This document shows positions 13,347-60,726 of a DNA stretch of 64,000 bases, piece after piece. The translations under genes were made by a program, and so were the position numbers. The DNA lies in the NCBI GenBank assembly GCA_965203965.1, contig CBDBDR010000017.1:278440-342439 (forward strand). Reading direction: 5' to 3'. The notes under the pieces were generated by a model. It did no database searches and was not told the origin of the DNA. It was given only the letters and a program-made list of their open reading frames with translations. Source of the stretch: Thermodesulfobacteriota bacterium (GTDB lineage: Bacteria; Desulfobacterota_D; UBA1144; Nemesobacterales; JAJCZQ01). Numbering within the stretch: position 1 is the first letter of the stretch; each line of letters opens with the position of its first letter.

Positions 13347-13401
<55 letters not shown>

Positions 13402-25967: not shown

Positions 25968-26020
25968 AGTCCTTTCAACTAAATTGATAGCAGTTTCACA
26001 CTCAAGTAAGCTAACCTTTC

Positions 26021-26722
26021 ATGTTGCGAAACGGCTTTGCAGAGATTAAGAGGAGAGCGGCAAATTTTGCGGTTGACTTTATAAAATCAGGAATGGTTGT
26101 AGGACTTGGCACGGGTAGCACTGCGCAGTGCGTGATCATGGAGATAGCCGAAAGGTTAGATCGGAAAGAGTTACACAGTCTCATTTTTATTCCAAGCTCG
26201 CTCAAAACAGCAAACTTTGCTTCCGATTTGGGTATTGAGTTGTCTGGTATTGATAAGGTTCAGAGAATTGACATAAATATAGATGGTGCTGATGAAGTTG
26301 ATGCAAGTGGCAACTTGATCAAAGGTGGGGGCGGTGCTCTTCTCAGGGAAAAAATCATTGCACAGAGCAGTAGGAGGAACGTTATTGTTGTTGATCAAAG
26401 TAAGATATCTACTGAATTGGGTGAAAATTGGCATCTGCCGGTTGAGGTTCTGCCATTTGGATATCGCTTAGAGATCTCATACATTGCTTCTCTGGGGGCA
26501 AAGCCTGAGATTAGAAAATGTGTTGAAGGGAAAAATTTTAAAACCGATCAAGGGAATTATATACTTGACTGTGACTTCGGTTTAATATCTGATCCACAGT
26601 GGCTTTCATCTAAATTAGAACAGAGGGCAGGTATTATAGAGCATGGGTTATTTGTTCAAACCACAAATGACCTGATTATTGGAAGACCTGATTCAGTTGA
26701 GCACAGGCATATTACTGGATAG
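26021..26722 (+). CDS. rpiA: Ribose-5-phosphate isomerase A
   Basis: Motifs GLGTGSTA and …DGADEVD…. Confidence 0.85.
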   Translation: MLRNGFAEIKRRAANFAVDFIKSGMVVGLGTGSTAQCVIMEIAERLDRKELHSLIFIPSSLKTANFASDLGIELSGIDKVQRIDINIDGADEVDASGNLIKGGGGALLREKIIAQSSRRNVIVVDQSKISTELGENWHLPVEVLPFGYRLEISYIASLGAKPEIRKCVEGKNFKTDQGNYILDCDFGLISDPQWLSSKLEQRAGIIEHGLFVQTTNDLIIGRPDSVEHRHITG

Positions 26723-27481
26723 ATGGAAATTTCAGGGATTATCGGGGTTGTAGTACTTTTTTTTACAGGCATTTTTGCTGCTTTCTTGAACGTTACGGCT
26801 GGTGGTGGTTCAAGTATTACCTTGCCCGTATTGATCTTTCTTGGTGTGGATCCAGTAATGGCTAATGGCACAAACCGTCTGGCTATAATGCTTCAAAATG
26901 CCTCTGCTTCTGCTTCTTTCAGAAATGAAAAAATTTACCAGAGTAAATACACTCTTATCTATGCCTTGCTAACTATCCCGGGGTCTATACTTGGTTCAAT
27001 ATATGCAACTGGGATTAGCAACGAGGCTTTTAAGAATGCGCTAGGTATAGTCCTAATAGGTGTTATGATCACAGTTATTCTGCCAAGGTCTAAGCAGGTT
27101 ATTGAGGGAGTTTCTCTCAGAAATAGGTTTTCTTGGCTTATATATCCCGGGTTTTTTATTCTTGGATTTTACGGGGGATTTATACAGGTTGGCATTGGTT
27201 TTATGATAATTGCTCTTATCCAACACACACTCCAAATTGATATGTTAAAAACCAATATGCACAAGACGTTTACAATTATGGTAATTAACATCCCAGCTTT
27301 GATAATATTTATTGCTACTGGCAATATGAACTGGGTTTTTGGAGTTGCACTTGCCATAGGTACTATGACAGGAGCATGGTGGGCGGCAAAGATTTCTGTG
27401 AGAAAAGGGGATGGGTTCATAAGATACTTTTTTGCACTTGGGTTAGTTGCGATATCAATGAGGCTTTTCGGGTTGATCTAG
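26723..27481 (+). CDS. TauE/SafE-family (DUF81) membrane exporter
   Basis: 252 aa, polytopic, with two internal repeats each carrying a GGGSS/GGF-type motif (…TAGGGSSITLPVLIFLGV…). Confidence 0.7.
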   Translation: MEISGIIGVVVLFFTGIFAAFLNVTAGGGSSITLPVLIFLGVDPVMANGTNRLAIMLQNASASASFRNEKIYQSKYTLIYALLTIPGSILGSIYATGISNEAFKNALGIVLIGVMITVILPRSKQVIEGVSLRNRFSWLIYPGFFILGFYGGFIQVGIGFMIIALIQHTLQIDMLKTNMHKTFTIMVINIPALIIFIATGNMNWVFGVALAIGTMTGAWWAAKISVRKGDGFIRYFFALGLVAISMRLFGLI

Positions 27482-29538
27482 CCGTCCGTAGCTGAAGAAA
27501 CTTTCCAAACCTCCTTCTGGTAATTGTTAAGGTTGTAGTATATTCCCCTGTTTTCCAAAAGTTCATGGTGAGTTCCTGTTTCCACTATACTGCCCTTGTG
27601 AATTACTATTATCCTGTCGGCATGGCGAACATTTGATAGCCTGTGAGCTATTATGAGGCGGGCTTTTTCATCCTGACTTCTTATAGATTTCTGTATGTTC
27701 TTTTCAATTTTAGCATCTATGTTTGAGGTTGCTTCATCCATGATCAGGAGAGTTGATTTCTTGTTCAGAGCCTTTATAAAGGACACCACCTGAATTTCAC
27801 CAGATGATAGCGTGCTTTTTTGGGTACTGATCTTTCTGTCTTCTCCTAAAAGGGATTTGATTTTTTCATAGTCCAATGGCTCGTCTAAAATATCTTTGCC
27901 AAAAAGGAACAAGTCTTGAAAGATCGCTGTTATGCTTGCCCTCAGAAAATTGTTGTCAACATCGTTTATGTTTACACCGTTAAAGAGAATCTCACCTCTT
28001 TGCACTTTATAGAATTTGAGAATCAAGTTCACCACTGTTGTCTTTCCCGACCCTGTAAGTCCGACCAGTGCCACCGTATCTCCGGGACATATCTTAAAAG
28101 ACACGTCTTTCAACGTCCAATCCCTGTCGTTATAGGAAAACCACACTTTCCTGAATTCTATTATTGTGGAAGAATAGGAGGGTTTTTTATTGCCACTTTT
28201 TTCGATCGGTTCATGGATCAGGTCATAGAGGTTTTCCGATGCAGCTACGGCAGATTGGAAGATATTGTATCGCTCGGATAGCTGTTGTATGGGGTTGAAC
28301 AACATTCTGACGTAATACAGGAAGGCTATGAGCCCGCCTATAGTGAGGTCGTGATTTATCACGCCGCGTCCTCCTTGCCAGAGTATCAATCCTACTCCGA
28401 GTATGCTGACGTATTCAATGAATGGTCTGAACATTGCATAAGTCCAGAGTTGTGACATATTTGCCGAGTAATTTTCTCTGTTTATGCTGTTAAATCTCTT
28501 AAAATTTTCATACTCTTTGTTGTATAGCTTTATAAGGGTTATTCCCTGAATGCTTTCCTGCACAAATGAATTGAGCTTCCCTATTGTAATGCGTATATTC
28601 CTGAACGCGGTTTTCAATCTCATCCTAAACAGCGCCGCTGCAAAAACGAGAAACAGAGTGAGGCAAAGTATTATCAGAGTCAACTTTGCATTCATTGTAA
28701 ACATGATTGAAATAATTCCTATAATGACCAGAATGTCCTTGATAAACTGAACAAGCACGGAGGTATACATTTCATTGATAGCATTTACGTCGTTTGTTAC
28801 CCTTGTGGTTATTCTTCCCACGGGGTTTTTGTCAAAAAAAGACTGAGGAAGCCGAAGGATGTAGGAGAATGCATTGTGTCTTATACTGTGCATTATCTTG
28901 TGTCCCGAATAAAACAAGGAATAGGTAAATGCTGAAGTAAAGATAAATACACCGAGCAATCCCAGAGAGATAAAAACAAAGTATTTTACAAGAAATTTGT
29001 AATTGTTAGAGCGTAAAAACTGTATCTCGTTCCGTTCCAATAATTCAAGATCATTGAGTTTGGCGTAGTATATCGTCCGTTCGGCTTTGTAAAATACGTT
29101 CTCGTTGCGGTTAAAAATGTCCAGAAATTGAGTTCTTTCTCTATTATCTATTCCAGATATATTGAAGACCATATATCTCGCATCAGTTATTGAGCCACTT
29201 TTTTCAAGGTTTGTACTATCCACCCGGTCAATTCTGGAGATATTAACAAGGTAGCTGCCGTCTTCCAACCTTATAACCTGTTCGGGATATTTGTTGATAA
29301 GTTGATCTGTATTTTTTATGCTTCCATCTGATCTGACCCAAGTGGGGTATATATAATTATCAACGGCATATTTAGTCAGATAAGGGATTGACACTTCCAA
29401 CGCTGCCGTAAGTATCATAAGAAGCAAGGAAAGTATGAAAAGTGGTCTGTGAGGTTTCACATAGCTTAGAAGCCATTTTATGATCTTGAGGTCGTATGTC
29501 CTTGTTCTCTTTTTCTCTTCAGATTGAAATGTGCTCAT
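27478..29538 (-). CDS. ABC exporter with fused transmembrane domain and nucleotide-binding domain, a large extracytoplasmic insertion (~130 aa) between TM1 and TM2, and a degenerate signature motif (LSSGE)
   Basis: Walker A GLTGSGKTT, Walker B LLIMDEATSNID, signature LSSGEIQV (non-canonical). 686 aa. Confidence 0.8.
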   Translation of the reverse strand: MSTFQSEEKKRTRTYDLKIIKWLLSYVKPHRPLFILSLLLMILTAALEVSIPYLTKYAVDNYIYPTWVRSDGSIKNTDQLINKYPEQVIRLEDGSYLVNISRIDRVDSTNLEKSGSITDARYMVFNISGIDNRERTQFLDIFNRNENVFYKAERTIYYAKLNDLELLERNEIQFLRSNNYKFLVKYFVFISLGLLGVFIFTSAFTYSLFYSGHKIMHSIRHNAFSYILRLPQSFFDKNPVGRITTRVTNDVNAINEMYTSVLVQFIKDILVIIGIISIMFTMNAKLTLIILCLTLFLVFAAALFRMRLKTAFRNIRITIGKLNSFVQESIQGITLIKLYNKEYENFKRFNSINRENYSANMSQLWTYAMFRPFIEYVSILGVGLILWQGGRGVINHDLTIGGLIAFLYYVRMLFNPIQQLSERYNIFQSAVAASENLYDLIHEPIEKSGNKKPSYSSTIIEFRKVWFSYNDRDWTLKDVSFKICPGDTVALVGLTGSGKTTVVNLILKFYKVQRGEILFNGVNINDVDNNFLRASITAIFQDLFLFGKDILDEPLDYEKIKSLLGEDRKISTQKSTLSSGEIQVVSFIKALNKKSTLLIMDEATSNIDAKIEKNIQKSIRSQDEKARLIIAHRLSNVRHADRIIVIHKGSIVETGTHHELLENRGIYYNLNNYQKEVWKVSSATDG

Positions 29539-29553
29539 TGAATTAGGCTATTA

Positions 29554-31281
29554 CTATACTGTCTGTATTTTATAGGTGCTTGAGTATATGCCGTCGGTTT
29601 TCATAAGCTCTTCATGGTTTCCGATCTCAACTACATTGCCGTTCTCAAAAACTGCGATTTTGTCAAAACTGCTTATTCTGGACGATATCCTGCTTGAGAT
29701 AACAATAAGGGTATTCCCTTTCATTATTTTGATAATGTTCTGCAAAACTAGGCTCTCTGTTTGCATATCAAGAGATGAGAGCACGTCGTCAAGTATGAGG
29801 ACTTTTGGTTTCAAGAGTATCGCCCGGGCAATTGCTATTCTCTGCCTCTGTCCCCCTGAAAGACTAAGTCCTCTTTCACCTACAACTGTGTTAAATCCTT
29901 CCGGAAATTCAATGATCTCGTTATAAATTGCTGCCATACTTGTTGCCTCTTCTATCTCCTGCTCGGTGATGTTCGGGTTCATAAATGTAATATTATTTTT
30001 TATTGAGCCGCTGAAGATAGTTGTGTTCTGTGGCACACACACTACTGATCTATTTATTATTTCTCTCGGTATTCTTGTTATATCTACCTCATCAATGAAT
30101 ATATGATTTTCCTCAGTGTCATAGACCTTCATCAACAGGTTTATAAGTGTTGTCTTTCCCGACCCGGTTCTCCCTGTAATTGCAAATGATGACCCACTTG
30201 GTATTTCAAAATTTATTTTGTTTAAAGCGGGTTGGCTTCTCTCGTTGTAAATAAACTCCAGATTATTGAACCTGATATTTCCATTTAGTGGCTGCTCGTA
30301 TGCGTTTTTTATGTTCTCCTTTTTCGGTTGAACTTCAAATATTGCATTTAGCCTGTTTATAGAAGCATTCCCTCTTTTAATTATGTCCACAGACCACCCC
30401 ATTGCCATCATAGGCCAGACTAGCATGGAGATGTAGAACAGCATAGCCGCGAATTTTCCAAGTGAGATTTCCAGATTGATCGTGCTGATACCTCCCACTA
30501 AAATGAATATTGCTGCTGAACTTCCCGCCATGAAAGTTATCAGAGGTTGATAGACCCCCCAGATCCTCACAAGATTTATATTCCTGTCCAAATAGTCAAT
30601 GCTTGCTTTTTCAAAGTCTTTAAGCTCAGGTTTTTCCCTGTTGAATGCTTTTACAACTTTTATCCCAGATATTGATTGTCTTGCACTTTCAGTAAGTTCA
30701 GAAAATGAATCCTGAGTTTTTTGAAACCTTTTTTCAATCTGGTTTCCGAACTTATACATGAAAAACCCGAGTAAAGGGAAAGGAATAAATGCGTAGAGAG
30801 TTAGCTCTGGTGAAACGAAAAGCATTGCTATGAATATAAAGCAGAAGAGAAAAATTCCATCGTATGCAACAAGTACACCCAAACCACATGAGAATTTCAG
30901 AGTTTCAATGTCACTGACGGTATGTGCCATCAGATCCCCGACTTTACGGGAAGAGAAGAAATCAAAATTCAGACTTTGTATATGTTTGAAGAAATCGTTT
31001 CTGAGAGAATTTTCTATTTTTCTTGCTGATCCCATTATGAAATATCTCCAGCCAAGTCTGAAAACCGCCATGAAAAATCCCAGTCCGAGTATGTAGAGGC
31101 TATATCTTGTTATAAGGGCAGTATCCAGTTGATCCGGCTCTGTAAGGGTGTCAATTATCCACTGGATGATCTTTGGAACGGCAAGCTGGGCAATATCAAC
31201 AAGAGACAGGCATACAACACCAGCCAGAAAAGAGTATTTGTATTGAAATAGAAGGGATTTGATACTTTTTTTCTTGAACAA
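29554..31281 (-). CDS. ABC exporter (fused transmembrane and nucleotide-binding domains), the partner half of a heterodimeric exporter. Its Walker B has DD instead of DE.
   Basis: Walker A GRTGSGKTT, signature LSGGQRQRIAIARA, Walker B VLILDDVLSSLD. 575 aa. Confidence 0.8.
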   Translation of the reverse strand: MFKKKSIKSLLFQYKYSFLAGVVCLSLVDIAQLAVPKIIQWIIDTLTEPDQLDTALITRYSLYILGLGFFMAVFRLGWRYFIMGSARKIENSLRNDFFKHIQSLNFDFFSSRKVGDLMAHTVSDIETLKFSCGLGVLVAYDGIFLFCFIFIAMLFVSPELTLYAFIPFPLLGFFMYKFGNQIEKRFQKTQDSFSELTESARQSISGIKVVKAFNREKPELKDFEKASIDYLDRNINLVRIWGVYQPLITFMAGSSAAIFILVGGISTINLEISLGKFAAMLFYISMLVWPMMAMGWSVDIIKRGNASINRLNAIFEVQPKKENIKNAYEQPLNGNIRFNNLEFIYNERSQPALNKINFEIPSGSSFAITGRTGSGKTTLINLLMKVYDTEENHIFIDEVDITRIPREIINRSVVCVPQNTTIFSGSIKNNITFMNPNITEQEIEEATSMAAIYNEIIEFPEGFNTVVGERGLSLSGGQRQRIAIARAILLKPKVLILDDVLSSLDMQTESLVLQNIIKIMKGNTLIVISSRISSRISSFDKIAVFENGNVVEIGNHEELMKTDGIYSSTYKIQTV

Positions 31282-31441
31282 AAAAAACGACCTTTGGAAA
31301 TCGGGATTTTGAACTTTGTCAGGGTATAATATACCCGTGTAATTGTTAATTGATTTGCTACGATGTTAAATGGTAATAAATATAATGTTGCAGAAAATGT
31401 AAAAACAAAGAAATCCTTCTCTGCTTTCAACTAAAAATTTA

Positions 31442-31470
31442 TTGAAAATGATCAGTAAATCTGGTATTAT
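31442..31470 (+). promoter_or_regulatory. Sigma70-like promoter for gltA (-35 TTGAAA, 17-bp spacer, -10 TATTAT)
   Basis: Read directly from the sequence; a strong AAGGAGG RBS sits upstream of the gltA ATG. Confidence 0.35.
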
Positions 31471-31533
31471 CCATAAGCAGTTTTAGTTAGATATTATTAA
31501 AACCTATTCGTAACCACTCCAAGGAGGTTTTTT

Positions 31534-32826
31534 ATGGAAAAGAAAAAGGACACACTTACTATAACAGACAATAGAAACGGTAAGGTTTACGAAATTCCAA
31601 TAGAAAATGAAACTATTAGGGCAACGGACCTGAGGCAGATCAAACTGAAAGACGAAGATTTTGGAATGATGAGCTACGACCCTGCTTTTGGTAACACGGC
31701 ATCTTGTAAAAGCAAAGTTACTTTCATTGATGGTGAAAAAGGTATCTTACGCTACAGGGGCTATTCAATTGATGAGCTTGCTAAAAAAAGTTCTTTTCTT
31801 GAGGTTTCATACTTACTGCTTTATGGGGAGCTACCTACAAAAAAGCAGCTTGATGGTTTTACGCATGACATAATCCATCACACATACCTACATGAAAATA
31901 TTAAAAAGTTAGTTGATAGTTTCAGATATGATGCGCACCCGATGGGAATGCTCATGGGCACTGTTGCCGCACTTTCAACTTTCTATCCTGAAGCAAAAAA
32001 TATTTTTGACACTGAAAACAATGAACTTCAGATAAAACGGTTGATAGCAAAACTGCCAACCATCGCAGCGTTTTCCTACAGGCATATAATGGGACTCCCT
32101 TACATATACCCTGATAACGATCTCAGCTATACCGGGAATTTTCTCAATATGATGTTTAGAATGGCAGAGTTGAAATATGAACCAAACAAAGCTATTGAGA
32201 AAGCCATTGACGTTTTATTTATACTCCATGCAGATCATGAACAAAATTGCAGTGCAAGCGCAATGAGAAGTGTGGGAAGTTCTCAACCCGATCCCTATAC
32301 GTCAACCGCATCCGCTATAGGTGCTTTATACGGCCCATTGCATGGTGGTGCGAATGAAGCCGTTCTTCAAATGCTTCAGGAAATAGGATCAAAGGACAAG
32401 ATCCCCGAATATATTGAACGGGCTAAACGCGGTGAATTTAGACTTATGGGTTTTGGTCACAGGGTTTATAAAGCCTATGATCCAAGAGCCAAGATAATAA
32501 AAGATGCAGCACACGAGGTATTTGAAGAGACGGGGAAAAACCCTCTTCTTGAAATTGCACTTGAGCTTGAAAGAATAGCTCTTGAAGATGACTACTTCGT
32601 AAAACGCCGCTTATATCCAAATGTAGATTTCTATTCTGGGTTGATATATCAGAGTATGGGCCTGCCAACAAGCATGTTTACAGTGCTTTTTGCGATTGGA
32701 AGAACTCCCGGTTGGCTTGCACAATGGAAGGAGATGTTAGAAGACCCAGAAACAAGGATTGCAAGACCGCGGCAGGTTTATCTCGGATATGATCTAAGAG
32801 ATTATTCACCAAAATCCAAAAGATAG
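31534..32826 (+). CDS. gltA: Citrate synthase (type II)
   Basis: 430 aa. …GFGHRVYKAYDPRA… and other citrate synthase signatures. Confidence 0.9.
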   Translation: MEKKKDTLTITDNRNGKVYEIPIENETIRATDLRQIKLKDEDFGMMSYDPAFGNTASCKSKVTFIDGEKGILRYRGYSIDELAKKSSFLEVSYLLLYGELPTKKQLDGFTHDIIHHTYLHENIKKLVDSFRYDAHPMGMLMGTVAALSTFYPEAKNIFDTENNELQIKRLIAKLPTIAAFSYRHIMGLPYIYPDNDLSYTGNFLNMMFRMAELKYEPNKAIEKAIDVLFILHADHEQNCSASAMRSVGSSQPDPYTSTASAIGALYGPLHGGANEAVLQMLQEIGSKDKIPEYIERAKRGEFRLMGFGHRVYKAYDPRAKIIKDAAHEVFEETGKNPLLEIALELERIALEDDYFVKRRLYPNVDFYSGLIYQSMGLPTSMFTVLFAIGRTPGWLAQWKEMLEDPETRIARPRQVYLGYDLRDYSPKSKR

Positions 32827-32843
32827 AAAAGACAGTTTTAATA

Positions 32844-32880
32844 AAGATAAGCAGGGTTTTGTTGATCCCCTGCTTATCTT
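32844..32880. terminator. Perfect 13-bp-stem hairpin (aagataagcaggg-N11-ccctgcttatctt). A bidirectional terminator between gltA and the GC-rich RM island.
   Basis: Read directly. A/T-rich flanks on both sides. Confidence 0.5.
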
Positions 32881-32906
32881 TGGGGATTTATATATGAAAA
32901 TCTCAT

Positions 32907-33092
32907 TCAGGTGCCAGAATCTTTTACGACATTCATGGGTGAAAGTGCAACCCTGACCAGTTCACCGGGTGTAGGTACTGATCCATCCGGGTTTCGAATC
33001 ATGACAATCTCTTCCTTTTCCACCTTTAACGGTTGATAACTATGTGACTTGACCCGAACAGTCGGACGGTCATCAAGGTTTCGCTGTGTCAT
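32907..33092 (-). CDS. Small (61 aa) GC-rich ORF tightly coupled downstream of the Type IIG RM gene; function unknown
   Basis: AAAGGAG RBS 7 nt before its ATG and only 16 nt after the RM stop. Same GC-rich composition as the RM gene. Confidence 0.4.
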   Translation of the reverse strand: MTQRNLDDRPTVRVKSHSYQPLKVEKEEIVMIRNPDGSVPTPGELVRVALSPMNVVKDSGT

Positions 33093-33108
33093 GTCTCATC
33101 TCCTTTCG

Positions 33109-36100
33109 TTAAACATCATTTTCCGCAGTATTTAGCGTCATCGTGATTGTCTTCATGATTTGGTCAGTCTCGGACAGGATTTTGAGGATGCTTTGATAAT
33201 GCTTCACATCCTCGAAGCTGAGAACGCGACCTTTGCGGTATTTGAGCCATTTCTGGGCGGGCTGATAGCCGCCAATGTAGAAATCCCATGATACGGCGGG
33301 CGCGTCGGCAAAATACTGGCTGTCATTGATCCAGACGCAGCCATCCTCGAAACGGAACTTGCCCACCTCGTTGTCACCGTCGCCCGTGAACGGGTAGGGG
33401 GTCGCACCGATTGAGGCAGGTTCCATCAGGTGGAGCTTGCGTAACTCCGCGCCCTTGGCGGACACGTCCCAGAATTCGTCTGGGGTGGTCGGCCACGGGA
33501 TGCGGGGGAAGTCGATTTTCAGGAACTCGGCATAGGTATCGCGATAAGCGGGACAATGCAGCACGCCATAGATGTAATCGAACACCTGCATCTCGTCGGG
33601 TTTGCCATCTTCGGGATGATCAGCCAGTTTTTGAATCTTCTTGTAAAGCTTTGGATCGAAATTCACCCGCTGAGTCTGATCGAGATCTTGTTCGTCGGGG
33701 TAGAGGTAGAGGGGGGCAAAGATTGATCCAGTTGTTGCCTCTCCGCACTTCACATCTGATACATACGTTGAGCAGTAGAAATGATTAACGCCCTTTTTGT
33801 TGCTTCGCGCTGTGATGAGTGAAATATTTGGATGTAACATATGTTTAGAAACATCCATTCTAGGCCATGAAACCAACGCAGGATGCAGAGCGACTTTCCT
33901 GTTATCAAAAGGCCGAAACGCATAGGGAACGATATAATCAAGGATGTTTCCACATGGAATGCGCTGTCTCTCTGCATCAAGCTTCCAATCTCTAGTGTCC
34001 CCCGCTGGAAATTTTTTGGAAGTCTGGGAAAAGAATTTCCTGCGAATAGTTTCTGTCGAGATGCTTTCGTCGCAAATTTCTGAAATTCTCTCCTGAATTT
34101 CTGCGTTGCTTTCTCCCACGGCAACAGGGTCACGAGATGTTTGTATCCCCGTAGTATTCAAAGGGAAAATCTCTACAATTGAGAAACCATTTTGATATGC
34201 AGGAGGAGCACTTACCCCTTTCCCGTTGAAGGTGAAATATGGCTCCGACGGATTCAATTTTTCTGATGAAATGCTGATGCGGTTAAGTGACTGAAGACGC
34301 TCATATTTAAGTTCACAACTTCCCCAAAGTTCAGAGAATGTGACTTCAGAGTTTCTGATCTGAGGTTGAGGCTTCTTCTTGATTGCTATGACTATCGAAA
34401 CACCCTGTTGGATATCGAATACGTTTTCATCCTTGATGCCATTTGGCGAAATTTCACCATGTTTGGAATTTCCATGTAAATCAACGACATGAATTTTGTC
34501 GAACGTCTGCATAAGGTGCCATCTCATTCCTCGAAAAGTCGGGTTGTCGAGGTAGCCATGGTTGGTGATGAAGCCAAGAATGCCTTCGCCGTTCTTTGCG
34601 ATCAGGCTCTCCGACAGGCGGATGAACTTGACGTAGTCATCATGCAAGGAGTGCTTTCGCTCTCCAAAGTGTTTGCCATCAACGTATTTGTAGTCCTCGA
34701 TCAGATTGCTGATCCAATCGCCCATGTTCTGCGAAATCCCAGAGTATGGTGGATTCCCGATCACGCACATGATGGGCATGTCGCGCTTGATTGTGTTCGC
34801 GCCCTTGGCCTCGCGGGATAGCCATTGCGTGAAAGGCAGGGTTTGGTTGGCAGGCTCGCCTTCCTCAAGGCTGTTGGTCAGATAGACTGACAGGCGCGGT
34901 GGGTTTCCCGTGGGCTTATAACCTAGCTCGGTCAGGATCATGTCGAGTTTCATATGGCACATGGCATAGGACGCCATGAGAAGCTCGAAGCCGTGCAGGC
35001 GGGGAATCAGATCGTCCTCGATGTATTTCGACCACATCGCGGGTGCGATGTCCTGAATCTTGGGTGCGATTTGCTTGATCACCTCGGCCAAAAACGTGCC
35101 TGTTCCTGTGGCAGGATCGAGGATTTGAACGCGGTGAACATCCTTCTTGATCGCGACGGGTTTGCCCTTCCTGTCGGTCTTGCCTGTGTCCCAGTCGATG
35201 GTCACTTTCGACGTGTCAGCCAGTCCATCGGGCAGGCTGAATTCCGTCTGCAAGACCTCGTCCACGGCGCGCACGATGAAATTCACAACGGGTTCGGGTG
35301 TGTACCAAACCCCTCGTGCCTTGCGTTTATCGGGGTTATAGGCAGCGAGGAATGTCTCGTAGAAATGAAGGAAGGGATCGTTCCGGCCCGTCAGCTTACC
35401 AAACCCCTCCATCAGCTTTGCCACATCACAGGCTTGGAACACGCGCGCAAGATCATCGATGATCCACGCGATGCGGTCGTCGAGATCATAACCAGCTATG
35501 TAGCTGAATAGCGAGCGCAGAAACGGGTTGGACTTGGGTAGCAGCTCCAATGCCTCCTGGCGGCTGAATGTGTCCAGACTGGTGTCGTGGAGCCGAGCTG
35601 CAAACATCCCATAGGCGATAGTTTCAGCATAAATGTCGGCGAAATCTTCTGCCTCGATGTTGTGGATCAGGTTTTCCCTGAACGCCTCATATTGTCCTAC
35701 AAGTTCTTCTGCATCGTCAGCCAGGGTATTTTGCAGCACATCCTTGATCAGAATGGCTTTACCTGCCATTCGTTCGGCCAGTTCACGGGGGCTGGTGATC
35801 GTTTGGGGCCTCTGGGCAACAAAATCCCGCAGTAGATTTTCGAGTGTCGTGTATTGATCCGGCTTCGGTTGAATGCCCGGAGTGAGGTCGGCGATGCGTA
35901 CCGAGGCGGTCAGTTCGCCGTCACGGTAAAAATCCCAATCAAGGCAGTTGGTATAGATCAGATTGGGTAGTGCAGCGCGGTAGCGTTCCTGTTGTGCCTT
36001 GTTGCTGCCTTTGAGGCCACGAATTCCAACGGGAATATCTTTGGCCTCAACGTGGCCGATCACAATATCACCCTGCGACACGATAAAATCAGGCGCACCA

Positions 36101-36258
36101 CATTCGATCTTTTTGGGTTCGTTCAGGGCTGTCACATCATCCGAAATCGAGGACAACAGATTTTGCAAGGTGGCGCGGTATGAGTGTTCCGTTGCATTGC
36201 CCGTATTATAAATGCTGGTGACTTCTACCAGATACCCTTGAATATTCAATGCCTGCAA
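33109..36258 (-). CDS. Single-chain Type IIG/IIL restriction-modification enzyme (MmeI family): N-terminal PD-(D/E)xK nuclease, gamma-class N6-adenine methyltransferase, target-recognition domain
   Basis: N-terminus …APDFIVSQGDIVIGHVEAKD… (D…EAK). Methyltransferase motif X GVWYTPEPVV, motif I DPATGTGTFL, motif IV GNPPYSG. 1049 aa. GC-rich relative to the genome. Confidence 0.75.
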   Translation of the reverse strand: MQALNIQGYLVEVTSIYNTGNATEHSYRATLQNLLSSISDDVTALNEPKKIECGAPDFIVSQGDIVIGHVEAKDIPVGIRGLKGSNKAQQERYRAALPNLIYTNCLDWDFYRDGELTASVRIADLTPGIQPKPDQYTTLENLLRDFVAQRPQTITSPRELAERMAGKAILIKDVLQNTLADDAEELVGQYEAFRENLIHNIEAEDFADIYAETIAYGMFAARLHDTSLDTFSRQEALELLPKSNPFLRSLFSYIAGYDLDDRIAWIIDDLARVFQACDVAKLMEGFGKLTGRNDPFLHFYETFLAAYNPDKRKARGVWYTPEPVVNFIVRAVDEVLQTEFSLPDGLADTSKVTIDWDTGKTDRKGKPVAIKKDVHRVQILDPATGTGTFLAEVIKQIAPKIQDIAPAMWSKYIEDDLIPRLHGFELLMASYAMCHMKLDMILTELGYKPTGNPPRLSVYLTNSLEEGEPANQTLPFTQWLSREAKGANTIKRDMPIMCVIGNPPYSGISQNMGDWISNLIEDYKYVDGKHFGERKHSLHDDYVKFIRLSESLIAKNGEGILGFITNHGYLDNPTFRGMRWHLMQTFDKIHVVDLHGNSKHGEISPNGIKDENVFDIQQGVSIVIAIKKKPQPQIRNSEVTFSELWGSCELKYERLQSLNRISISSEKLNPSEPYFTFNGKGVSAPPAYQNGFSIVEIFPLNTTGIQTSRDPVAVGESNAEIQERISEICDESISTETIRRKFFSQTSKKFPAGDTRDWKLDAERQRIPCGNILDYIVPYAFRPFDNRKVALHPALVSWPRMDVSKHMLHPNISLITARSNKKGVNHFYCSTYVSDVKCGEATTGSIFAPLYLYPDEQDLDQTQRVNFDPKLYKKIQKLADHPEDGKPDEMQVFDYIYGVLHCPAYRDTYAEFLKIDFPRIPWPTTPDEFWDVSAKGAELRKLHLMEPASIGATPYPFTGDGDNEVGKFRFEDGCVWINDSQYFADAPAVSWDFYIGGYQPAQKWLKYRKGRVLSFEDVKHYQSILKILSETDQIMKTITMTLNTAENDV

Positions 36259-37088
36259 AATCGCGCCCCGCTGCGTTTGTTGCCATCTGTGAACGGATGA
36301 TCCTTGACGATAAAGTACAGAAGATGCGCTGCCTTTTCTTCCAAACTTGGATAAACGTCTTTTCTAAAAGCGGATTGAAACACACCGCCGACGATACCCG
36401 TCACACTCCCGCTTTCTCGCTCCTGCCCGAAAATTTCCGTAGCTTCTTTTTTTCTCACGAATTCTTTTTTTAACACCACCAAAGCCGCTTTGAGATTTTC
36501 CGCCGTAAATGTTATCTGCTTCCTACTTGCCGCCGATTTTGGTAAACTGCCTTTATCATAAGCGTCTAGTGAAAACCAAGTACCCGCAAAAATACTGACA
36601 AGCTCCAAAATGTCCTTTGCTTTGACTTCATCGCTTGCGGGCAGCAAATCTCGTACGTTGGACACTGCTTGCATAAATTTTTTGTAGTTCTTCCCGGCGC
36701 GCTTTTTGTTGATCGAGTAGCCAAGGAGCAAGTGTTGTTTGAGTGTTTGGGTCGCCCAGATACGGAATTGCGTGGCTTGTTTAGAATTTACACGGTAGCC
36801 CGCAGAGAGTATAGCGTCTAAATTGTAATATTCTATTTGACGAGTTACTTGCCTCTTCCCTTCTTTTTGAACTGTTTCCAAAACGGAAACGGTTGATTTT
36901 CTGTTGAGTTCACCTGTCCGATAAATGTTTTTCAAATGCTTTGATATAGCAGGCCTCTGGACGTCAAATAAATCGGCGATTTGTTGTAAAGTCCCCCAGA
37001 TTGTATCCTTTTCAATATCCCCGCGAAACGCTATTTCTCCGTTTTCGGTTTGATACAAAACAATGTTCGGCTTAGTTTTCATGCTCAA
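36246..37088 (-). CDS. RhuM/Fic-DOC-family protein. The ORF ends only 8 aa after the Fic motif HPFTDGNKR, so it is probably C-terminally truncated.
   Basis: Fic motif HPFTDGNKRSG at the extreme C-terminus. The ORF overlaps the RM gene start by 13 nt. Confidence 0.55.
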   Translation of the reverse strand: MSMKTKPNIVLYQTENGEIAFRGDIEKDTIWGTLQQIADLFDVQRPAISKHLKNIYRTGELNRKSTVSVLETVQKEGKRQVTRQIEYYNLDAILSAGYRVNSKQATQFRIWATQTLKQHLLLGYSINKKRAGKNYKKFMQAVSNVRDLLPASDEVKAKDILELVSIFAGTWFSLDAYDKGSLPKSAASRKQITFTAENLKAALVVLKKEFVRKKEATEIFGQERESGSVTGIVGGVFQSAFRKDVYPSLEEKAAHLLYFIVKDHPFTDGNKRSGARFCRH

Positions 37089-37338
37089 CCCCGCTCAAAT
37101 TCTTCAAAATTCGCTTATTTAATTCCGCTTCTTCCTTGATCTGTTCCTCAAACTCATCTTTTATATCTTCTTCTCTAAATATATCCCTAAAACTCGCACC
37201 CTCTGCACTACTACCTATGGGTGATGTAAATACTTTGTTCTTATTAAACGGAGGATCTAAGTCAATACAGTCAGAGTTTATTCCTTCTAATACTTCAAGA
37301 TTGTCATGACAGAATATAGTTCTATTACTTACATTCAT
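37072..37338 (-). pseudogene. N-terminal fragment (88 aa) of a beta-class amino-methyltransferase (N4-C/N6-A) with a DPPF motif
   Basis: …IFCHDNLEVLEGINSDCIDLDPPFN… matches methyltransferase N-termini of the PF01555 type. Full-length enzymes are more than 250 aa. Confidence 0.5.
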
Positions 37339-37339
37339 C

Positions 37340-37364
37340 TAATAATTTCAGTAATTTGGTTCAT
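37340..37364. repeat. 25-bp exact direct repeat (taataatttcagtaatttggttcat), copy 1. On the minus strand it encodes MNQITEII, matching a piece of the IS1595 transposase C-terminal region.
   Basis: Identical 25-mer at 41936-41960, inside the IS1595 transposase fragment ORF. Confidence 0.7.
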
Positions 37365-37402
37365 CATTCTCACCGCACTATTGTATATAATTCCTTGTTT
37401 TT

Positions 37403-37753
37403 TTAAGTGCTTGAAAACTGTTTGCTTATAATACTGTTGTAGTAAAAGTCAATTGTATGCTCTATTGATTTCAAGAACAGATCAATGATTTCTTTCTGAC
37501 CTTCTTCTGATTTTATAAAGTTTGATACGTCTGTTTCTTTTTTTAGTCTGAGATTCAGAACTTCGGAGAATGATTCTGTAATGGTTTGCCGATCATCTTC
37601 AAGCATTGTTTCTATCAATGCCTGATCTTGGACGTCATATTTTTTGTTTGCAATTGCAGTTGAGAGGTTGTCTATAAATTCAGGAACTACCAGTTTAGGA
37701 TGGCTTTCTTTTACAATGGACTCAAAGGTTTTTATGAGGTCTTGAGAGTACAT
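37403..37753 (-). CDS. Hypothetical acidic protein (116 aa)
   Basis: ORF only; no recognisable motifs. Confidence 0.35.
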   Translation of the reverse strand: MYSQDLIKTFESIVKESHPKLVVPEFIDNLSTAIANKKYDVQDQALIETMLEDDRQTITESFSEVLNLRLKKETDVSNFIKSEEGQKEIIDLFLKSIEHTIDFYYNSIISKQFSST

Positions 37754-37795
37754 ATTATTGAATTTCTTATTCTATAATTCAGTCTATAAAGAACT

Positions 37796-38821
37796 TCAGT
37801 TTTTAAAGCCGTCAATATTTTCCAGAAGAGCAGTGATAAGTTTGATCGTGTTTTTTATATCTTCTTTGTATGCAATGGAACTTGGGCTATGCAAATATCT
37901 GGTGGGTACTGATATTACTGCGGCACGGCTTCCCTTTCCTGTTACCTGCATTGCGGTGGCGTTCGTTCCACCTGCCTTTTTGACCGTGATCTGGGTTGGT
38001 ATATCTTTCTTTTCTGCAAGTTCATTTATATCAAAAGAAAATTTTCTATCTGCCACCAAATACCTATCGGACAGCCTTATTTCGGGTCCTTTACCAACAT
38101 TTGCAAGAGATTTGTCTGCAGGTATACCCGGGACGTCCATTGCCACGGTGCCTTCCAGAGCAACAACAAAATCAGGTTCAACAACAGGGGTTATAAGCCT
38201 TGCCCCTCTTAATCCCGTTTCTTCCTGAACCGTTGCCGTAACAAAAAGATCACATTTTATATTAGGGTTTTTACTCAATGCTTCAATTATGATGAACAAG
38301 CCCATTCTATCATCCAATGCCTTTGAAATTACCGCGTCTTCAGTTTCTGTGAACTTGGTGTCAAATGATGCAAAATCTCCAACTTTGACCAAACTCTTAA
38401 CTTTTTCAGCCGATAATCCAACGTCAACCACGCAGTCCTCAATTTCCGGAACTTCTTTGTTATTGCTGCCTTTGCTTACGTGGGGAGGAATAGCTGCTAC
38501 CATACCGACAAGCTGGGTTTTACCCCACACTACTAACCTTTGAGCGTAATAAACCCGTGGATCTATGCCACCGAGAGGGGTCAATCTTATAAAACCGTTG
38601 TCATCTATATGGTGAACCATAAATCCGACTTCATCCGTATGAGCGTCAAGGACGACCCTGGGACCCTGTCCTTTTATATGTGCAATGATATTTCCCATTG
38701 CATCCTTGGAAATATCTTTTGTGAACTTTTTCAATTCATCAGTAACAACGTCACTTATGAGGTCTTCTCCGCCTGGCATGCCCGGGGTGTTGCATAATAT
38801 TTTCAACAACTCTATGTTCAT
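37796..38821 (-). CDS. M42-family metallo-aminopeptidase (FrvX/CelM-like)
   Basis: 341 aa with M42 family features (…VLDAHTDEVGFMV…, …DDRMGLFIIIEAL…). Confidence 0.85.
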   Translation of the reverse strand: MNIELLKILCNTPGMPGGEDLISDVVTDELKKFTKDISKDAMGNIIAHIKGQGPRVVLDAHTDEVGFMVHHIDDNGFIRLTPLGGIDPRVYYAQRLVVWGKTQLVGMVAAIPPHVSKGSNNKEVPEIEDCVVDVGLSAEKVKSLVKVGDFASFDTKFTETEDAVISKALDDRMGLFIIIEALSKNPNIKCDLFVTATVQEETGLRGARLITPVVEPDFVVALEGTVAMDVPGIPADKSLANVGKGPEIRLSDRYLVADRKFSFDINELAEKKDIPTQITVKKAGGTNATAMQVTGKGSRAAVISVPTRYLHSPSSIAYKEDIKNTIKLITALLENIDGFKN

Positions 38822-38902
38822 AGTTTTTTGATTATAGTCTAAAACCCATTATTTTCCAGATTTTAATTGATTTGATGGGCTGAAAATTCTAATATTTACA
38901 TT

Positions 38903-40261
38903 ATGGATGAGAAACTATATCCCGCTAACAATCCTCCCCTGTTTGTCCAGCCAGAGTCTACCAAACCCCTTGCCGAAAGACTGAGGCCACAAAGACTGGA
39001 AGACGTCGTTGGTCAAGATCATTTATTGGGAGAACAAGGGATGATAAAAAAGATGATAGAAGCAGGTGCACTTCAACCCATGATTTTCTGGGGCCCTCCA
39101 GGGACTGGCAAAACGACCCTTGCCCAGATCATAGCAGATAAGATCAATGCCATTGTATACTCTATAAATGCAATATCCTCAGGTGTTAAAGACCTACGGG
39201 AAGTAATTGAAAAGGCAAAAGAGTCTATACTGACGGGTAAAAAAACAGTTTTATTTGTGGATGAAATTCACAGGTTCAACAAAGCACAGCAGTCAGCTCT
39301 TTTGAAAAGCGTGGAAGATGGAACGGTTGTGCTTATCGGTACCACCACTGAAAACCCTTCTTTTGAAGTTATTGCTCCTCTTTTGTCACGGTCTCAGGTC
39401 TACACTTTAAATTCACTCAATGAAGATGACCTGAATGAAATTTTGAGACGTGCTTTGGAAAACATCCCAACCCTTGATACAAAGAACAAAGGTTCTCATC
39501 TAAAAATTAATATAGATAACAAAGCCAGAAGTGAGTTGATCAGGTTGGCAGGTGGGGATGCGAGAGTTATGCTTAACGCTCTGGAAACTGCAATTCATAC
39601 CACTTCTCCCGTTAATAATGGAATAACAATAGATATAAACACGGTAAAGCAAGCATACCAGACCAGCAGATACAGGTATGATCAATCTGGGGAAGATCAT
39701 TACAACACCATTTCAGCTTTTATCAAGAGTGTGAGGGGCAGTGATCCCGATGCTTCAGTTTACTATCTGGCAAAGATGATAGAAGCAGGTGAAGATGTTA
39801 AGTTCATTGCAAGGAGACTTATAATACTTGCTTCGGAAGATATAGGGAACGCGGAGCCTTATGCACTTACTCTGTCAACAAGTTGCTTTACAGCTGTAAA
39901 TTACGTTGGTTTACCGGAAGCGGGGTTGATACTTGCACAGACTGCAACCTATCTTGCAAGTTGTCCAAAGAGCAATGCCTCTTACTTAGCACTTGGTAAA
40001 GCAGTTGAAGATGTTAGGTCAAAGCCAAATCTTGAAGTGCCAATGCATTTGAGAAATGCACCGACAAAACTTATGAAGGAACTTGGATACGGTAAAAACT
40101 ACAAATATTCACATAACTATGATGAGCATTTTGTAGATCAGGACTTTCTGCCTAAAGGATTGAGGGATAAAATATATTACAAACCAAATGAAATAGGGCG
40201 TGAAGTCTCGCTCAAAAAATACCTTGAAACCAAGTGGAAAAAGAGGCAAAAAAAGGATTAA
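38903..40261 (+). CDS. rarA: Replication-associated recombination protein A (AAA+ ATPase RarA/MgsA)
   Basis: Walker [14 protein letters not shown], Walker [13 protein letters not shown]-terminal MgsA domains. Confidence 0.9.
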
Positions 40262-40641
40262 TCTTTTCTTTCTATCAATTCCACCTTGTAACCATCTGGG
40301 TCTTCAAAGAACGCAATAACGGTGTTTCCGTGCTTCATTGGGCCAGGAGGTCTTGTCAGCCTACCACCGAGTTTTTCTATTTTTTCGCAAGCCAGATATA
40401 TATCTTCAACCCCAAAAGCTATGTGTCCATAGCCATTACCCAGATCATATTTGGAAGTATCCCAGTTATGTGTCAACTCTAAAAATGGTTCAGTATCGTC
40501 CCCGTAACCCAGAAATGCGAGGCTGAATTTTCCATCGGGATACTGTGTAGTCCTATGATGTTTGAGTCCCAATGATTCCGTGTAGAATTTTATTGATCTT
40601 TCAAGATCACCGACCCGTATCATTGTATGAAGGTATTTCAT
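40258..40641 (-). CDS. gloA: Lactoylglutathione lyase (glyoxalase I)
   Basis: 127 aa. [27 protein letters not shown]… is classic GloA. Confidence 0.85.
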
Positions 40642-41017
40642 TTTTAGGCTCCTACTCTAAAGTTTGGGGGTTATATACCTACTTACCCGAACTGATATAA
40701 CTACTTATACTATGATTAAGTTTTATCTTTTGTTGGTTTGTAGTTTATATTGGGGATTGTTTTATCAGTAGGTTGTAAGTCATTTTGAGGTAGATTTCTC
40801 TTTTGAGTATCCGTTTTCTTTTTAGCGAATGTAGCATCTACGACTTCTTCCATAGTTGCTCTTATCGGTGGTATGATTTTTTGTTTTCTACCCATTTTTG
40901 ATATTTACCTGTTTTAACGTCTTTACCTACTTTGCACTAACGTTTATTATACCTACTGATTTATACACTTATGTATTAAGAGCTAAGAAATACGTATTTT
41001 ATAACAAATAAAGTTAC

Positions 41018-41305
41018 TTATACTGACATTAGTATAGTTGGAATTAATATTACTCTCGCTATCCATTTTATGGTGTTAATACCACCATATAACTTATTTA
41101 ACTTTTTTGTATCTTTCCTTACTTTTTTCATATCCTTTCTTACTTCACCTATATCTTCTCTCATATCATTTCTTAATTCGGTGAATTGAGTATTCATCAA
41201 GTTAATGATATCTGTATTTGTAGGTATATCTTGCATAAAAACTAAACTCCTTTCTAATGTAGTTTTTTTCTCACTGGTAATATCATATTCACCATCCATA
41301 TTCAC
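41018..41305 (-). CDS. Small coiled-coil protein with a C-terminal TM segment (XhlA-like/phage-associated)
   Basis: 95 aa. Lys/Arg/Asp-rich coiled-coil …ELRNDMREDIGEVRKDMKKVRKD… and C-terminal hydrophobic helix IKWIARVILIPTILMSV. Confidence 0.3.
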   Translation of the reverse strand: MNMDGEYDITSEKKTTLERSLVFMQDIPTNTDIINLMNTQFTELRNDMREDIGEVRKDMKKVRKDTKKLNKLYGGINTIKWIARVILIPTILMSV

Positions 41306-60687: not shown

Positions 60688-60726
60688 TCGTTTCCTGTCA
60701 ACGCCTGCGGAACATTGGTTAAATTG

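What the first reader, a model, noticed from the sequence alone, without database searches (positions are those of the whole stretch)
33780..34560. Compositional mosaic inside the Type IIG RM gene at the target-recognition region
Within the otherwise GC-rich RM ORF, this ~780-bp stretch is conspicuously more AT-rich. It encodes roughly residues 566-826, the segment between the NPPY methyltransferase core and the C-terminal region, where MmeI-family enzymes carry their target-recognition domain. A foreign-composition target-recognition segment inside a conserved scaffold is what domain swapping by recombination would produce. It implies a recently changed recognition specificity.
Basis: partly seen in the sequence, partly recalled or inferred. 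Interest (0 to 1): 0.5.

Follow-up and report, generated by a model that had tools for sequence, protein, structure and literature searches.

The report
Swapped recognition domain in restriction enzyme
The AT-rich stretch is the DNA-recognition module of a single-chain restriction-modification enzyme. It has been exchanged between gene lineages by recombination, but AT-richness there is a trait of the whole family, so it does not show a recent change in this genome.

Summary
Window 33780-34560 has GC 0.43 against 0.53 for the rest of the ORF 33109-36258(-). Third-codon-position GC (GC3) is 0.41 against 0.65 (p~2e-11). The best-fit low-GC3 tract is 33718-34497 (residues 588-847).

The stretch is the hypervariable target-recognition module of a Type IIG enzyme. 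Its nearest solved relatives are DrdV and LlaBIII, not MmeI. Homolog identity falls from about 90% to about 30% across it.

Synonymous divergence (dS) shows real cassette exchange:
- The tract at residues ~530-865 is closest to L081 and L083 (dS 0.38 and 0.53), whose scaffolds are at dS 1-3.
- The scaffold is closest to L140-L142 (dS 0.6-0.9), which carry unrelated recognition domains.

Composition alone does not diagnose this. The recognition domain has lower GC3 than its scaffold in 73 of 76 family loci. The same cassette is equally AT-rich inside three other GC-rich scaffolds.

"Recent" is not shown. What does look recent is arrival of the whole GC-rich gene, with a RhuM/Fic gene, in a strain-variable 4.2-kb island (32876-37092). 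The host has 40% GC and is probably a Dadabacteria relative.

Verdict: a known kind of event, well documented here, of moderate-to-low interest.

The parts
33109..36258 (-). Intact 1049-aa single-chain Type IIG restriction-modification gene. Order of parts: N-terminal PD..EXK nuclease, helical connector, gamma-class N6-adenine methyltransferase, recognition domain, conserved C-terminal region.
   Evidence: ORF. Pfam Type_ISP_C 1e-77, N6_Mtase, Eco57I. PADLOC REase_MTase_IIG PDLC03610 E 1.9e-283. Solved-structure hits LlaBIII 2e-33 and DrdV 2e-31. Foldseek top hit DrdV, E 2.5e-25.
33664..34671 (-). Exchanged specificity cassette, residues ~530-865. The 3' breakpoint is sharp at residues 864-874. 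The 5' breakpoint lies at 528-537 by informative sites, but could be as far upstream as residue ~427-460 (window up to ~34980) by pairwise mismatch density.
   Evidence: Two-breakpoint maximum chi2 of 287-368, reached by 0 of 200 permutations. dS to L081 is 0.38 here against 3.1 and 1.05 in the flanks. dS to L083 is 0.53 against 1.98 and 1.42.
33718..34497 (-). Low-GC3 core (residues 588-847), which is the hypervariable part of the family alignment.
   Evidence: GC3 0.39 against 0.66, chi2 57.5. Family identity 0.23-0.40 over residues 621-860. Family mean GC3 0.48-0.56 over residues 631-840.
34648..34650 (-). Codon S537. It aligns with DrdV K488, a base-contacting lysine of the methyltransferase domain. 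It is Ser in every homolog with this recognition-domain type and Trp in the six other-type homologs displayed; fewer than 10% of the 119 homologs share Ser.
   Evidence: Alignment to 7lo5. DrdV contacts K486/K488 (bioRxiv 10.1101/2021.01.06.425610). Covariation with recognition-domain type.
33727..33741 (-). Residues E840-G844, aligned with the DrdV recognition-domain base contacts D803 and K807. They lie inside the exchanged tract.
   Evidence: HMMER alignment and DrdV paper. The mapping is my inference from that alignment.
34744..34755 (-). NPPY catalytic motif IV (residues 502-505).
   Evidence: Translation. Invariant in alignment A1.
36040..36093 (-). PD-X13-EAK nuclease motif (P56 D57 ... 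E71 A72 K73).
   Evidence: Translation. P56, E71, A72 and K73 are invariant and D57 is nearly invariant (at least 90%) in 56 homologs; A1 numbering is one lower than mine.
33112..33636 (-). Conserved C-terminal region (residues 875-1049). GC3 is 0.67-0.82. It is scaffold-like, with L140-L142 as nearest relatives.
35659..36246 (-). N-terminal nuclease block (residues 5-200), with a third, separate history. Its nearest relative is L025.
   Evidence: dS 0.71 to L025 against 1.5-2.3 to L140-L142. For residues 201-530 the order reverses, 0.73-0.91 against 1.33.
32876..37092 (.). Strain-variable 4.2-kb island carrying the RM gene and a RhuM/Fic gene. It lies between the gltA terminator and a methyltransferase-remnant ORF.
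   Evidence: Sister-strain contig L084 is 99% identical to 25534-32875 and 37093-41092 but carries a different 1.95-kb cargo. Independent assemblies L085 and L088 confirm the gltA-to-RM junction.
36246..37088 (-). RhuM + Fic/DOC gene immediately upstream of the RM gene, overlapping its start by 13 nt.
   Evidence: Pfam Virulence_RhuM 1e-23, Fic 6e-9. PADLOC PDC-S23 6e-95. Absent from 88 other RM-homolog loci.

Best explanation
The AT-rich stretch is the specificity module of a DrdV-like Type IIG enzyme. The module comprises a base-contacting loop of the methyltransferase domain plus the variable half of the recognition domain. In this family the module behaves as an exchangeable cassette. Homologous recombination in the highly conserved flanks (about 90% amino-acid identity) replaces about 1 kb, and with it probably the recognised sequence for both cleavage and methylation.

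The window gene is such a recombinant:
- The connector, methyltransferase and C-terminus come from an L140-like lineage.
- The recognition cassette comes from an L081/L083-like lineage.
- The N-terminal nuclease block comes from an L025-like lineage.

The low GC of the cassette is an intrinsic, family-wide property of the hypervariable region. It is not a mark of a recent event in this genome. The whole mosaic gene was then acquired horizontally into a defence hot spot of a 40%-GC genome, probably a Dadabacteria relative.

Shown: the compositional dip, the collapse of identity, the discordant dS and nearest neighbours, the breakpoints, the strain-variable island. Inferred: that specificity changed, the direction and date of the exchange, and the crossover mechanism.
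For: 1. Discordant history. Against L081, dS is 3.09 (residues 201-530), 0.38 (537-865) and 1.05 (875-1045). Against L083 it is 1.98, 0.53 and 1.42. Against L140 it is 0.73, saturated, and 0.60. The three carriers of this recognition-domain type have mutually saturated scaffolds, but their recognition domains are at dS 0.38-0.86.
2. Control. L082 has the same recognition-domain type with dS 1.46 there, similar to its scaffold (1.38 and 1.21). The cassette therefore does not have an intrinsically low dS.
3. Breakpoints fall at residues 528-537 and 864-874; 0 of 200 permutations reach the observed chi2.
4. Family-wide modularity. There are at least 27 recognition-domain types among the 120 closest homologs. 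Of 98 pairs with scaffolds at least 93% identical, 34 have recognition domains under 45% identical.
5. The tract contains the positions aligned with all four DrdV base-contact residues named in the preprint passages read here (K486, K488, D803, K807). S537 covaries with recognition-domain type.
6. The dip is family-wide. It occurs in 73 of 76 loci. GC3 correlates with conservation along the gene (Spearman 0.79). The window profile correlates with the family mean profile (r 0.74). The same cassette has GC3 0.23-0.49 in L081-L083.
7. Island. A sister strain lacks the gene at the same locus. Scaffold GC3 is ~0.70 against host 0.36-0.41. The named gltA relatives, all at about 80% identity, are labelled Candidatus Dadabacteria, whereas the RM homologs are mostly alphaproteobacterial.
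Against: - Only three DNA comparators carry this recognition-domain type, and all are short metagenomic contigs.
- dS values above ~1 are saturated and imprecise.
- Inside the cassette, L140-type sequences are essentially unalignable. The informative-site contrast there is therefore trivial, and the real signal comes from the flanks and from pairwise dS.
- The 5' breakpoint is poorly resolved (residues 427-537).
- No recognition sequence is known for any member, so the change of specificity is inferred.
- The cause of the family-wide low GC3 is unexplained.
Confidence: 0.8

Rival explanations
1. The compositional dip marks a recent import of a foreign recognition domain into this particular gene or genome, so the recognition specificity of this strain changed recently.
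For: The dip is real. The recognition domain and the scaffold have different histories. The dip here is deeper than in 91% of family members.
Against: The dip occurs in 73 of 76 homologs regardless of host. The same cassette is equally AT-rich in three other scaffolds. The closest recognition-domain relative is at dS 0.38 and the closest scaffold relative at dS 0.6-0.9, so no recent donor or pre-swap ancestor is seen. Contigs from the same host population (L085, L088) carry the same allele as far as they reach. No silent cassette or paralog lies in the window.
Confidence: 0.12
2. No recombination. The segment diverged in place under diversifying or relaxed selection, and AT-biased mutation lowered its GC.
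For: GC3 tracks amino-acid variability along the gene across the family (Spearman 0.79). The recognition domain is AT-richer than its scaffold even in low-GC hosts (L067, L022). Both observations fit an intrinsic mutational or selective bias.
Against: Divergence in place predicts a cassette dS at least as high as the scaffold dS for every pair. Instead it is 3-8 times lower against L081 and L083. Nearest neighbours differ between segments. Recognition domains fall into discrete types on near-identical scaffolds. This idea may still explain the composition, but it does not explain the mosaic.
Confidence: 0.05
3. Partial amelioration. After transfer into a 40%-GC host, the least constrained segment drifted towards host composition faster than the conserved flanks.
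For: Cassette GC3 (0.39-0.41) matches host genes (0.36-0.41).
Against: The same cassette has GC3 0.23-0.49 in L081-L083, which sit in GC-richer contexts (L082 flanks are 0.58). Synonymous sites in the flanks of the window gene show no comparable shift (GC3 ~0.70).
Confidence: 0.03

Closest known systems
DrdV (Type IIL single-chain RM enzyme, PDB 7LO5/7LVV)
   Same: Same length class (1029 against 1049 aa) and same domain order: nuclease, connector, gamma N6A methyltransferase, recognition domain. Sequence match E 1.8e-31 over residues 376-957. Best Foldseek hit. The base-contacting positions align inside the exchanged tract.
   Different: About 18-19% identity only. The recognition sequence and cleavage geometry of the window enzyme are unknown. 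The structural model is poor (pLDDT 66.6).
LlaGI / LlaBIII pair (Type ISP)
   Same: Homologous methyltransferase and recognition domain (4xqk, E 2e-33). The natural-variation pattern is the same: more than 95% identity over the upstream domains, less than 50% over the methyltransferase C-terminus and recognition domain, and the last ~100 aa similar again (PMC3553950).
   Different: Type ISP enzymes carry an SF2 helicase-like ATPase and cut by translocation and collision. The window protein has no such domain.
MmeI family (Type IIL)
   Same: Same architecture and the same logic. One recognition domain serves both cleavage and methylation, so specificity can change in one step (PMC4833311).
   Different: Not a sequence-level member. 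MmeI_Mtase scores 19.9, below its cutoff of 27. There are no other MmeI domain hits and no 5HR4 hit. The MmeI specificity changes described in the paper read here were mapped to, and engineered by interchanging, specific TRD amino acids, whereas here the whole cassette is replaced.
Allelic recognition-domain substitution in Type IIG genes of C. jejuni and S. thermophilus (Furuta et al. 2010, PMC2853133), and HsdS recognition-domain shuffling in Type I systems
   Same: Conserved flanks with a replaced recognition domain between close relatives. RM genes sit as strain-variable substitutions at a fixed locus.
   Different: Those cases are within a species. Here the cassette is shared between scaffolds that are saturated at synonymous sites, and the gene sits in a different phylum from most of its relatives.

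Membership tests
Type IIG/IIL single-chain RM enzyme (DrdV-like; PADLOC REase_MTase_IIG) | N-terminal PD-(D/E)XK nuclease in the same polypeptide | tested here: met
   P56-D57...E71-A72-K73 is present. P56, E71, A72 and K73 are invariant and D57 nearly invariant (at least 90%) in 56 homologs. There is no Pfam nuclease hit, so this rests on the motif plus the full-length PADLOC profile match to residues 6-515.
Type IIG/IIL single-chain RM enzyme (DrdV-like; PADLOC REase_MTase_IIG) | Gamma-class N6-adenine methyltransferase with AdoMet motif I and NPPY motif IV | tested here: met
   DPATGTGTF around residue 384 and NPPY at 502-505. Pfam N6_Mtase 5e-11 and Eco57I 2e-8.
Type IIG/IIL single-chain RM enzyme (DrdV-like; PADLOC REase_MTase_IIG) | C-terminal target-recognition domain shared by both activities | tested here: met
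   Pfam Type_ISP_C at 696-1036, E 9.8e-78. Aligned with the recognition domains of LlaBIII and DrdV.
Type IIG/IIL single-chain RM enzyme (DrdV-like; PADLOC REase_MTase_IIG) | Site-specific cleavage at a fixed distance and one-strand methylation | not testable with these tools
   Needs biochemistry or a methylome.
MmeI family in the strict sense | Matches to the MmeI-specific domain models or the MmeI structure | tested here: not met
   MmeI_Mtase scores 19.9 bits, below the gathering score of 27. No other MmeI_* Pfam hits. MmeI is not among solved-structure sequence hits at E<=0.01, nor among the Foldseek matches listed, the best 50 of 199.
Type ISP (LlaGI/LlaBIII), the name NCBI gives to homologs | SF2 helicase-like ATPase between the nuclease and the methyltransferase | tested here: not met
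   No helicase or ATPase domain in Pfam, NCBIfam or PADLOC. The protein is 1049 aa against ~1570. Only the methyltransferase and recognition-domain part aligns with 4xqk (residues 895-1457).
Recognition-domain cassette exchange (allelic substitution by recombination) | Conserved flanks with a diverged centre among close homologs | tested here: met
   Identity ~0.9 in the flanks against 0.23-0.40 over residues 621-860. At least 27 recognition-domain types. 34 of 98 near-identical scaffold pairs have unrelated recognition domains.
Recognition-domain cassette exchange (allelic substitution by recombination) | Discordant ancestry of the cassette and the flanks at synonymous sites | tested here: met
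   dS matrices. Nearest-neighbour switch. Breakpoint test with 0 of 200 permutations.
Recognition-domain cassette exchange (allelic substitution by recombination) | The exchange is recent or occurred in this host lineage | tested here: inconclusive
   The nearest cassette is at dS 0.38 and the nearest scaffold at dS 0.6-0.9. Population contigs L085 and L088 reach only ~50-75 nt into the tract. No closer recognition domain was found in JGI metagenomes or plasmids.
Recognition-domain cassette exchange (allelic substitution by recombination) | Different recognition sequence after the exchange | not testable with these tools
   No recognition motif is known for any member. The only support is the alignment of DrdV contact residues inside the tract.

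The most novel reading that the evidence does not exclude
In this widespread Type IIG family, recognition cassettes may form a pool that is exchanged across scaffolds and phyla. Their synonymous composition is decoupled from the host: r is 0.34 with host GC, against 0.64-0.68 for scaffolds. They are AT-richer than their scaffolds in 73 of 76 loci, including two of the lowest-GC hosts sampled (L022, L067).

One testable cause is GC-biased gene conversion confined to the conserved recombination arms, with cassettes too divergent to form heteroduplex relaxing towards AT. If so, the GC3 profile of such genes would be a sequence-only footprint that marks where specificity cassettes begin and end.
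Probability: 0.3. Interest if true: 0.5.

Novelty: new member of a known kind. Interest (0 to 1): 0.3.

Why it matters
The locus gives a clean natural example, defined by its breakpoints, of how single-chain RM enzymes change specificity. They replace a ~1-kb cassette that carries both the recognition domain and the base-contacting loop of the methyltransferase domain. The boundaries (residues ~530 and ~865) are a ready-made design for engineering chimeric enzymes in a family with at least 27 natural cassette types on an almost invariant scaffold.

It also carries a warning for sequence-only scans. A compositional dip inside such genes flags the variable module, not the age of a transfer. The biology itself, recognition-domain swapping and RM genes in variable defence islands, is already established.

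Tried and rejected
- A protein search with the recognition domain alone returned only proteins under 500 aa at 30-40% identity. It could not find full-length enzymes with the same recognition domain.
- A scan of JGI metagenome contigs with the recognition domain and tblastn against plasmids found nothing above 37% and 44% identity over the full segment (short fragments reached 52-71%). No closer donor is available.
- The look-up of encoding contigs failed for P0001 (the window's own protein) and P0010 (Roseinatronobacter monicus). DNA of the only named carrier of this recognition-domain type was therefore not examined.
- A phase-variable shufflon with silent cassettes was considered and rejected. 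No paralogous fragment or repeat of the gene exists elsewhere in the window.
- Assembly chimerism at the gltA-RM junction was considered and rejected. Independent assemblies from other samples span it (L085 at 100%, L088 at 99.1%).
- A run of eight consecutive codons with one difference each, at GNPPYSGI against all comparators, is simply saturated synonymous change in an invariant motif.
- The AlphaFold model was poor (pLDDT 66.6, pTM 0.38). It was used only to confirm that DrdV is the top structural match, not for domain boundaries.
- Linkage of the RhuM/Fic gene to this RM family was tested and not found.
Full report
**Observation**

The gene is on the minus strand, 33109..36258, 1049 aa.
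- GC of that stretch is 0.426. The rest of the gene is 0.531, and the window outside the island is 0.393.
- The contrast lies at synonymous sites. GC3 is about 0.55-0.75 up to residue ~560, 0.35-0.45 from ~570 to ~860, and 0.67-0.82 afterwards.
- A two-change-point fit gives residues 588-847, window 33718-34497.

One correction of perspective is needed. Neighbouring host genes have GC3 0.36-0.41. Relative to the genome, the GC-rich flanks are the odd part, not the dip.

**What the gene is**

- Pfam finds Type_ISP_C (696-1036, E 1e-77), N6_Mtase and Eco57I. MmeI_Mtase is below its threshold at 19.9 against 27.
- PADLOC's Type IIG model PDLC03610 matches at E 1.9e-283.
- The closest solved structures by sequence are LlaBIII (4xqk, 2e-33), DrdV (7lo5, 1.8e-31) and LlaGI (5ffj). 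MmeI is not hit.
- A low-confidence AlphaFold model (pLDDT 66.6) still retrieves DrdV first (E 2.5e-25).
- The protein has a PD..EAK nuclease motif (P56 D57, E71 A72 K73), motif I (DPATGTGTF) and NPPY (502-505). These are invariant or nearly invariant in 56 homologs. It has no helicase domain.

It is therefore a DrdV-like Type IIG/IIL single-chain enzyme with a methyltransferase and recognition domain of the Type ISP kind. It is neither an MmeI-family member in the strict sense nor a true Type ISP enzyme.

**Does identity collapse over the segment?**

Yes. Among the 119 closest database homologs, mean identity to the query is 0.8-0.96 over residues 200-600. It falls to 0.23-0.40 over 621-860 and recovers to 0.7-0.88 afterwards.
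- P0002, P0003, P0004 and P0010 share this recognition-domain type at 67-90% identity across the two blocks that span the segment (residues 566-700 and 701-826). P0008 shares it at 53-64%.
- Across the 120 homologs there are at least 27 recognition-domain types.
- Of 98 pairs whose scaffolds are at least 93% identical, 34 have recognition domains under 45% identical.

**Is it a recombinant?**

Protein identities hide the signal, because the scaffold is under strong purifying selection. DNA shows it. I obtained DNA for P0002, P0003 and P0004 (L081-L083), which have the same recognition-domain type. I also obtained DNA for P0005, P0007 and P0019 (L140-L142), which have other types.

Synonymous divergence (dS) of the window gene from each comparator:

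| Comparator | residues 201-530 | residues 537-865 | residues 875-1045 |
|---|---|---|---|
| L081 | 3.09 | 0.38 | 1.05 |
| L083 | 1.98 | 0.53 | 1.42 |
| L140 | 0.73 | saturated | 0.60 |

- The cassette's nearest relatives sit on distant scaffolds, and the scaffold's nearest relatives carry unrelated cassettes.
- The window gene, L081 and L083 have mutually saturated scaffolds, but their recognition domains are at dS 0.38-0.86. This cassette has therefore moved at least twice.
- L082 carries the same recognition-domain type with dS 1.46 there, equal to its scaffold. The cassette is thus not intrinsically slow-evolving.
- Informative-site analysis places breakpoints at residues 528-537 and 864-874 (window ~33641-33669 and 34649-34672). 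None of 200 permutations reaches the observed chi2.
- The 5' boundary is less certain. Pairwise mismatch density allows residues 427-460.
- The exchanged tract is wider than the low-GC3 core by ~50 codons on the 5' side and ~20 on the 3' side. Crossovers in the conserved arms would produce this.

**Functional content of the tract**

According to the DrdV preprint, the methyltransferase domain is residues 295-635 and the recognition domain 636-1029. Base-specific contacts come from K486 and K488 (methyltransferase domain) and from D803 and K807 (recognition domain).
- In the HMMER alignment these positions correspond to K535, S537, E840 and G844 of the window protein. All four lie inside the exchanged tract.
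- Position 537 is Ser in every homolog with this recognition-domain type and Trp in the six other-type homologs displayed. Fewer than 10% of the 119 homologs share Ser.

It is my inference that the cassette is the complete specificity module. No recognition sequence is known for any member.

**Is composition evidence for the swap or for its recency?**

No.
- In 76 family loci from GTDB genomes with adequate flanks, mean GC3 is 0.70 (N-terminal scaffold), 0.52 (recognition domain) and 0.71 (C-terminal scaffold). The recognition domain is lower in 73 of 76. The window gene is at the 91st percentile for depth of the dip.
- Along the gene, family mean GC3 correlates with conservation (Spearman 0.79). 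The window's GC3 profile correlates with the family mean profile (r 0.74).
- Scaffold GC3 tracks host GC (r 0.64-0.68). Recognition-domain GC3 tracks it only weakly (r 0.34).
- The recognition domain remains AT-richer than its scaffold in two of the lowest-GC hosts sampled (L067, L022).
- The same cassette has GC3 0.23-0.49 in L081-L083. This excludes amelioration in the present host.

The cause of this family-wide bias is unresolved. Candidates are relaxed selection with AT-biased mutation, or GC-biased gene conversion confined to the recombining arms.

**Recency**

- The nearest cassette is at dS 0.38 and the nearest scaffold at dS 0.6-0.9.
- No closer recognition domain exists in JGI metagenomes or plasmids.
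- No silent cassette lies in the window.
- Which lineage was the recipient cannot be decided.

"Recently changed specificity" is therefore not shown.

**Genomic context**

- A sister-strain contig (L084) is 99% identical to window 25534-32875 and 37093-41092. In place of 32876-37092 it carries a different 1.95-kb cargo, a gene with Methylase_S and DUF559 domains.
- The left junction is immediately after the gltA terminator hairpin. The right junction lies at the 3' end of an 88-aa methyltransferase-remnant ORF.
- Independent assemblies (L085 at 100%, L088 at 99.1%) span the gltA-RM junction. This excludes a chimeric assembly.
- The named gltA relatives, all at about 80% identity, are labelled Candidatus Dadabacteria. 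The tmRNA is the one-piece type.
- The RM homologs are overwhelmingly alphaproteobacterial. They often sit next to mobilisation, resolvase/ParDE or integrase genes or on plasmids.

The recent event that is visible is the acquisition of the whole, already mosaic, GC-rich gene by a low-GC genome at a defence hot spot.

**Comparison with what is known**

- LlaGI and LlaBIII show the same pattern: more than 95% identity upstream, less than 50% over the recognition domain, and the last ~100 aa similar again (PMC3553950).
- Allelic recognition-domain diversity in Type IIG genes and RM substitutions at fixed loci were described by Furuta et al. (PMC2853133).
- The logic that one recognition domain serves both activities is set out for MmeI (PMC4833311).

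This is a new, well-resolved member of a known kind.

Noticed in passing
window 35659-36246 (residues 5-200 of the RM gene): The N-terminal nuclease block has a third, separate ancestry. Its nearest relative is L025 (dS 0.71) against 1.5-2.3 to L140-L142, which are nearest for residues 201-530. GC3 here is also lower (0.53-0.58) than in the methyltransferase part. The gene is therefore a mosaic of at least three sources.
   Followed up: partly
window 37072-37338 (-); L084 9279-9539: An 88-aa ORF encodes only the N-terminus of a DNA methyltransferase (..IDLDPPFNKN..). It is conserved in the sister strain (86 aa, with IDLIYLDPPF). It sits exactly at the right border of the variable island and looks like a remnant of an older RM system at this hot spot. 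It has no Pfam hit.
   Followed up: partly
L084 7343-9296: The sister strain carries a 401-aa gene with Methylase_S (Type I specificity) and DUF559 domains at the locus where the window has the RM and RhuM/Fic genes. This is allelic substitution of defence cargo between gltA and the M42 peptidase gene.
   Followed up: partly
window 36246-37088 (-): A RhuM + Fic/DOC gene (PADLOC candidate PDC-S23, E 6e-95) overlaps the RM start by 13 nt. Its composition is intermediate (GC3 0.46). It is absent next to RM homologs in 88 other loci, so its pairing with the RM gene is specific to this island.
   Followed up: partly
window 53323-62223: A second RM or defence cluster lies in the same window: Type I HsdM (53323-54837), an unusually long 717-aa HsdS-like protein (55742-57895), and an AAA_14/DUF4143 ATPase (61018-62223). 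Local GC is raised to 0.44-0.47.
   Followed up: no
window 9780-10132 (-) and 13328-13401 (-): A one-piece tmRNA and a tRNA. Together with the Dadabacteria-like gltA, they indicate that the host is not an alphaproteobacterium, unlike most carriers of the RM family.
   Followed up: no
family loci L001-L080: Recognition-domain GC3 is lower than scaffold GC3 in 73 of 76 genomes and correlates only weakly with host GC (r 0.34, against 0.64-0.68 for scaffolds). The bias persists in low-GC hosts (L022, L067). Its cause is unexplained.
   Followed up: partly
L082, L140, L143: Homologs sit beside a Mob_Pre relaxase (L082), resolvase plus ParDE plus KlcB (L140), and a phage-type integrase (L143). The family travels on plasmids and integrative elements.
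   Followed up: no
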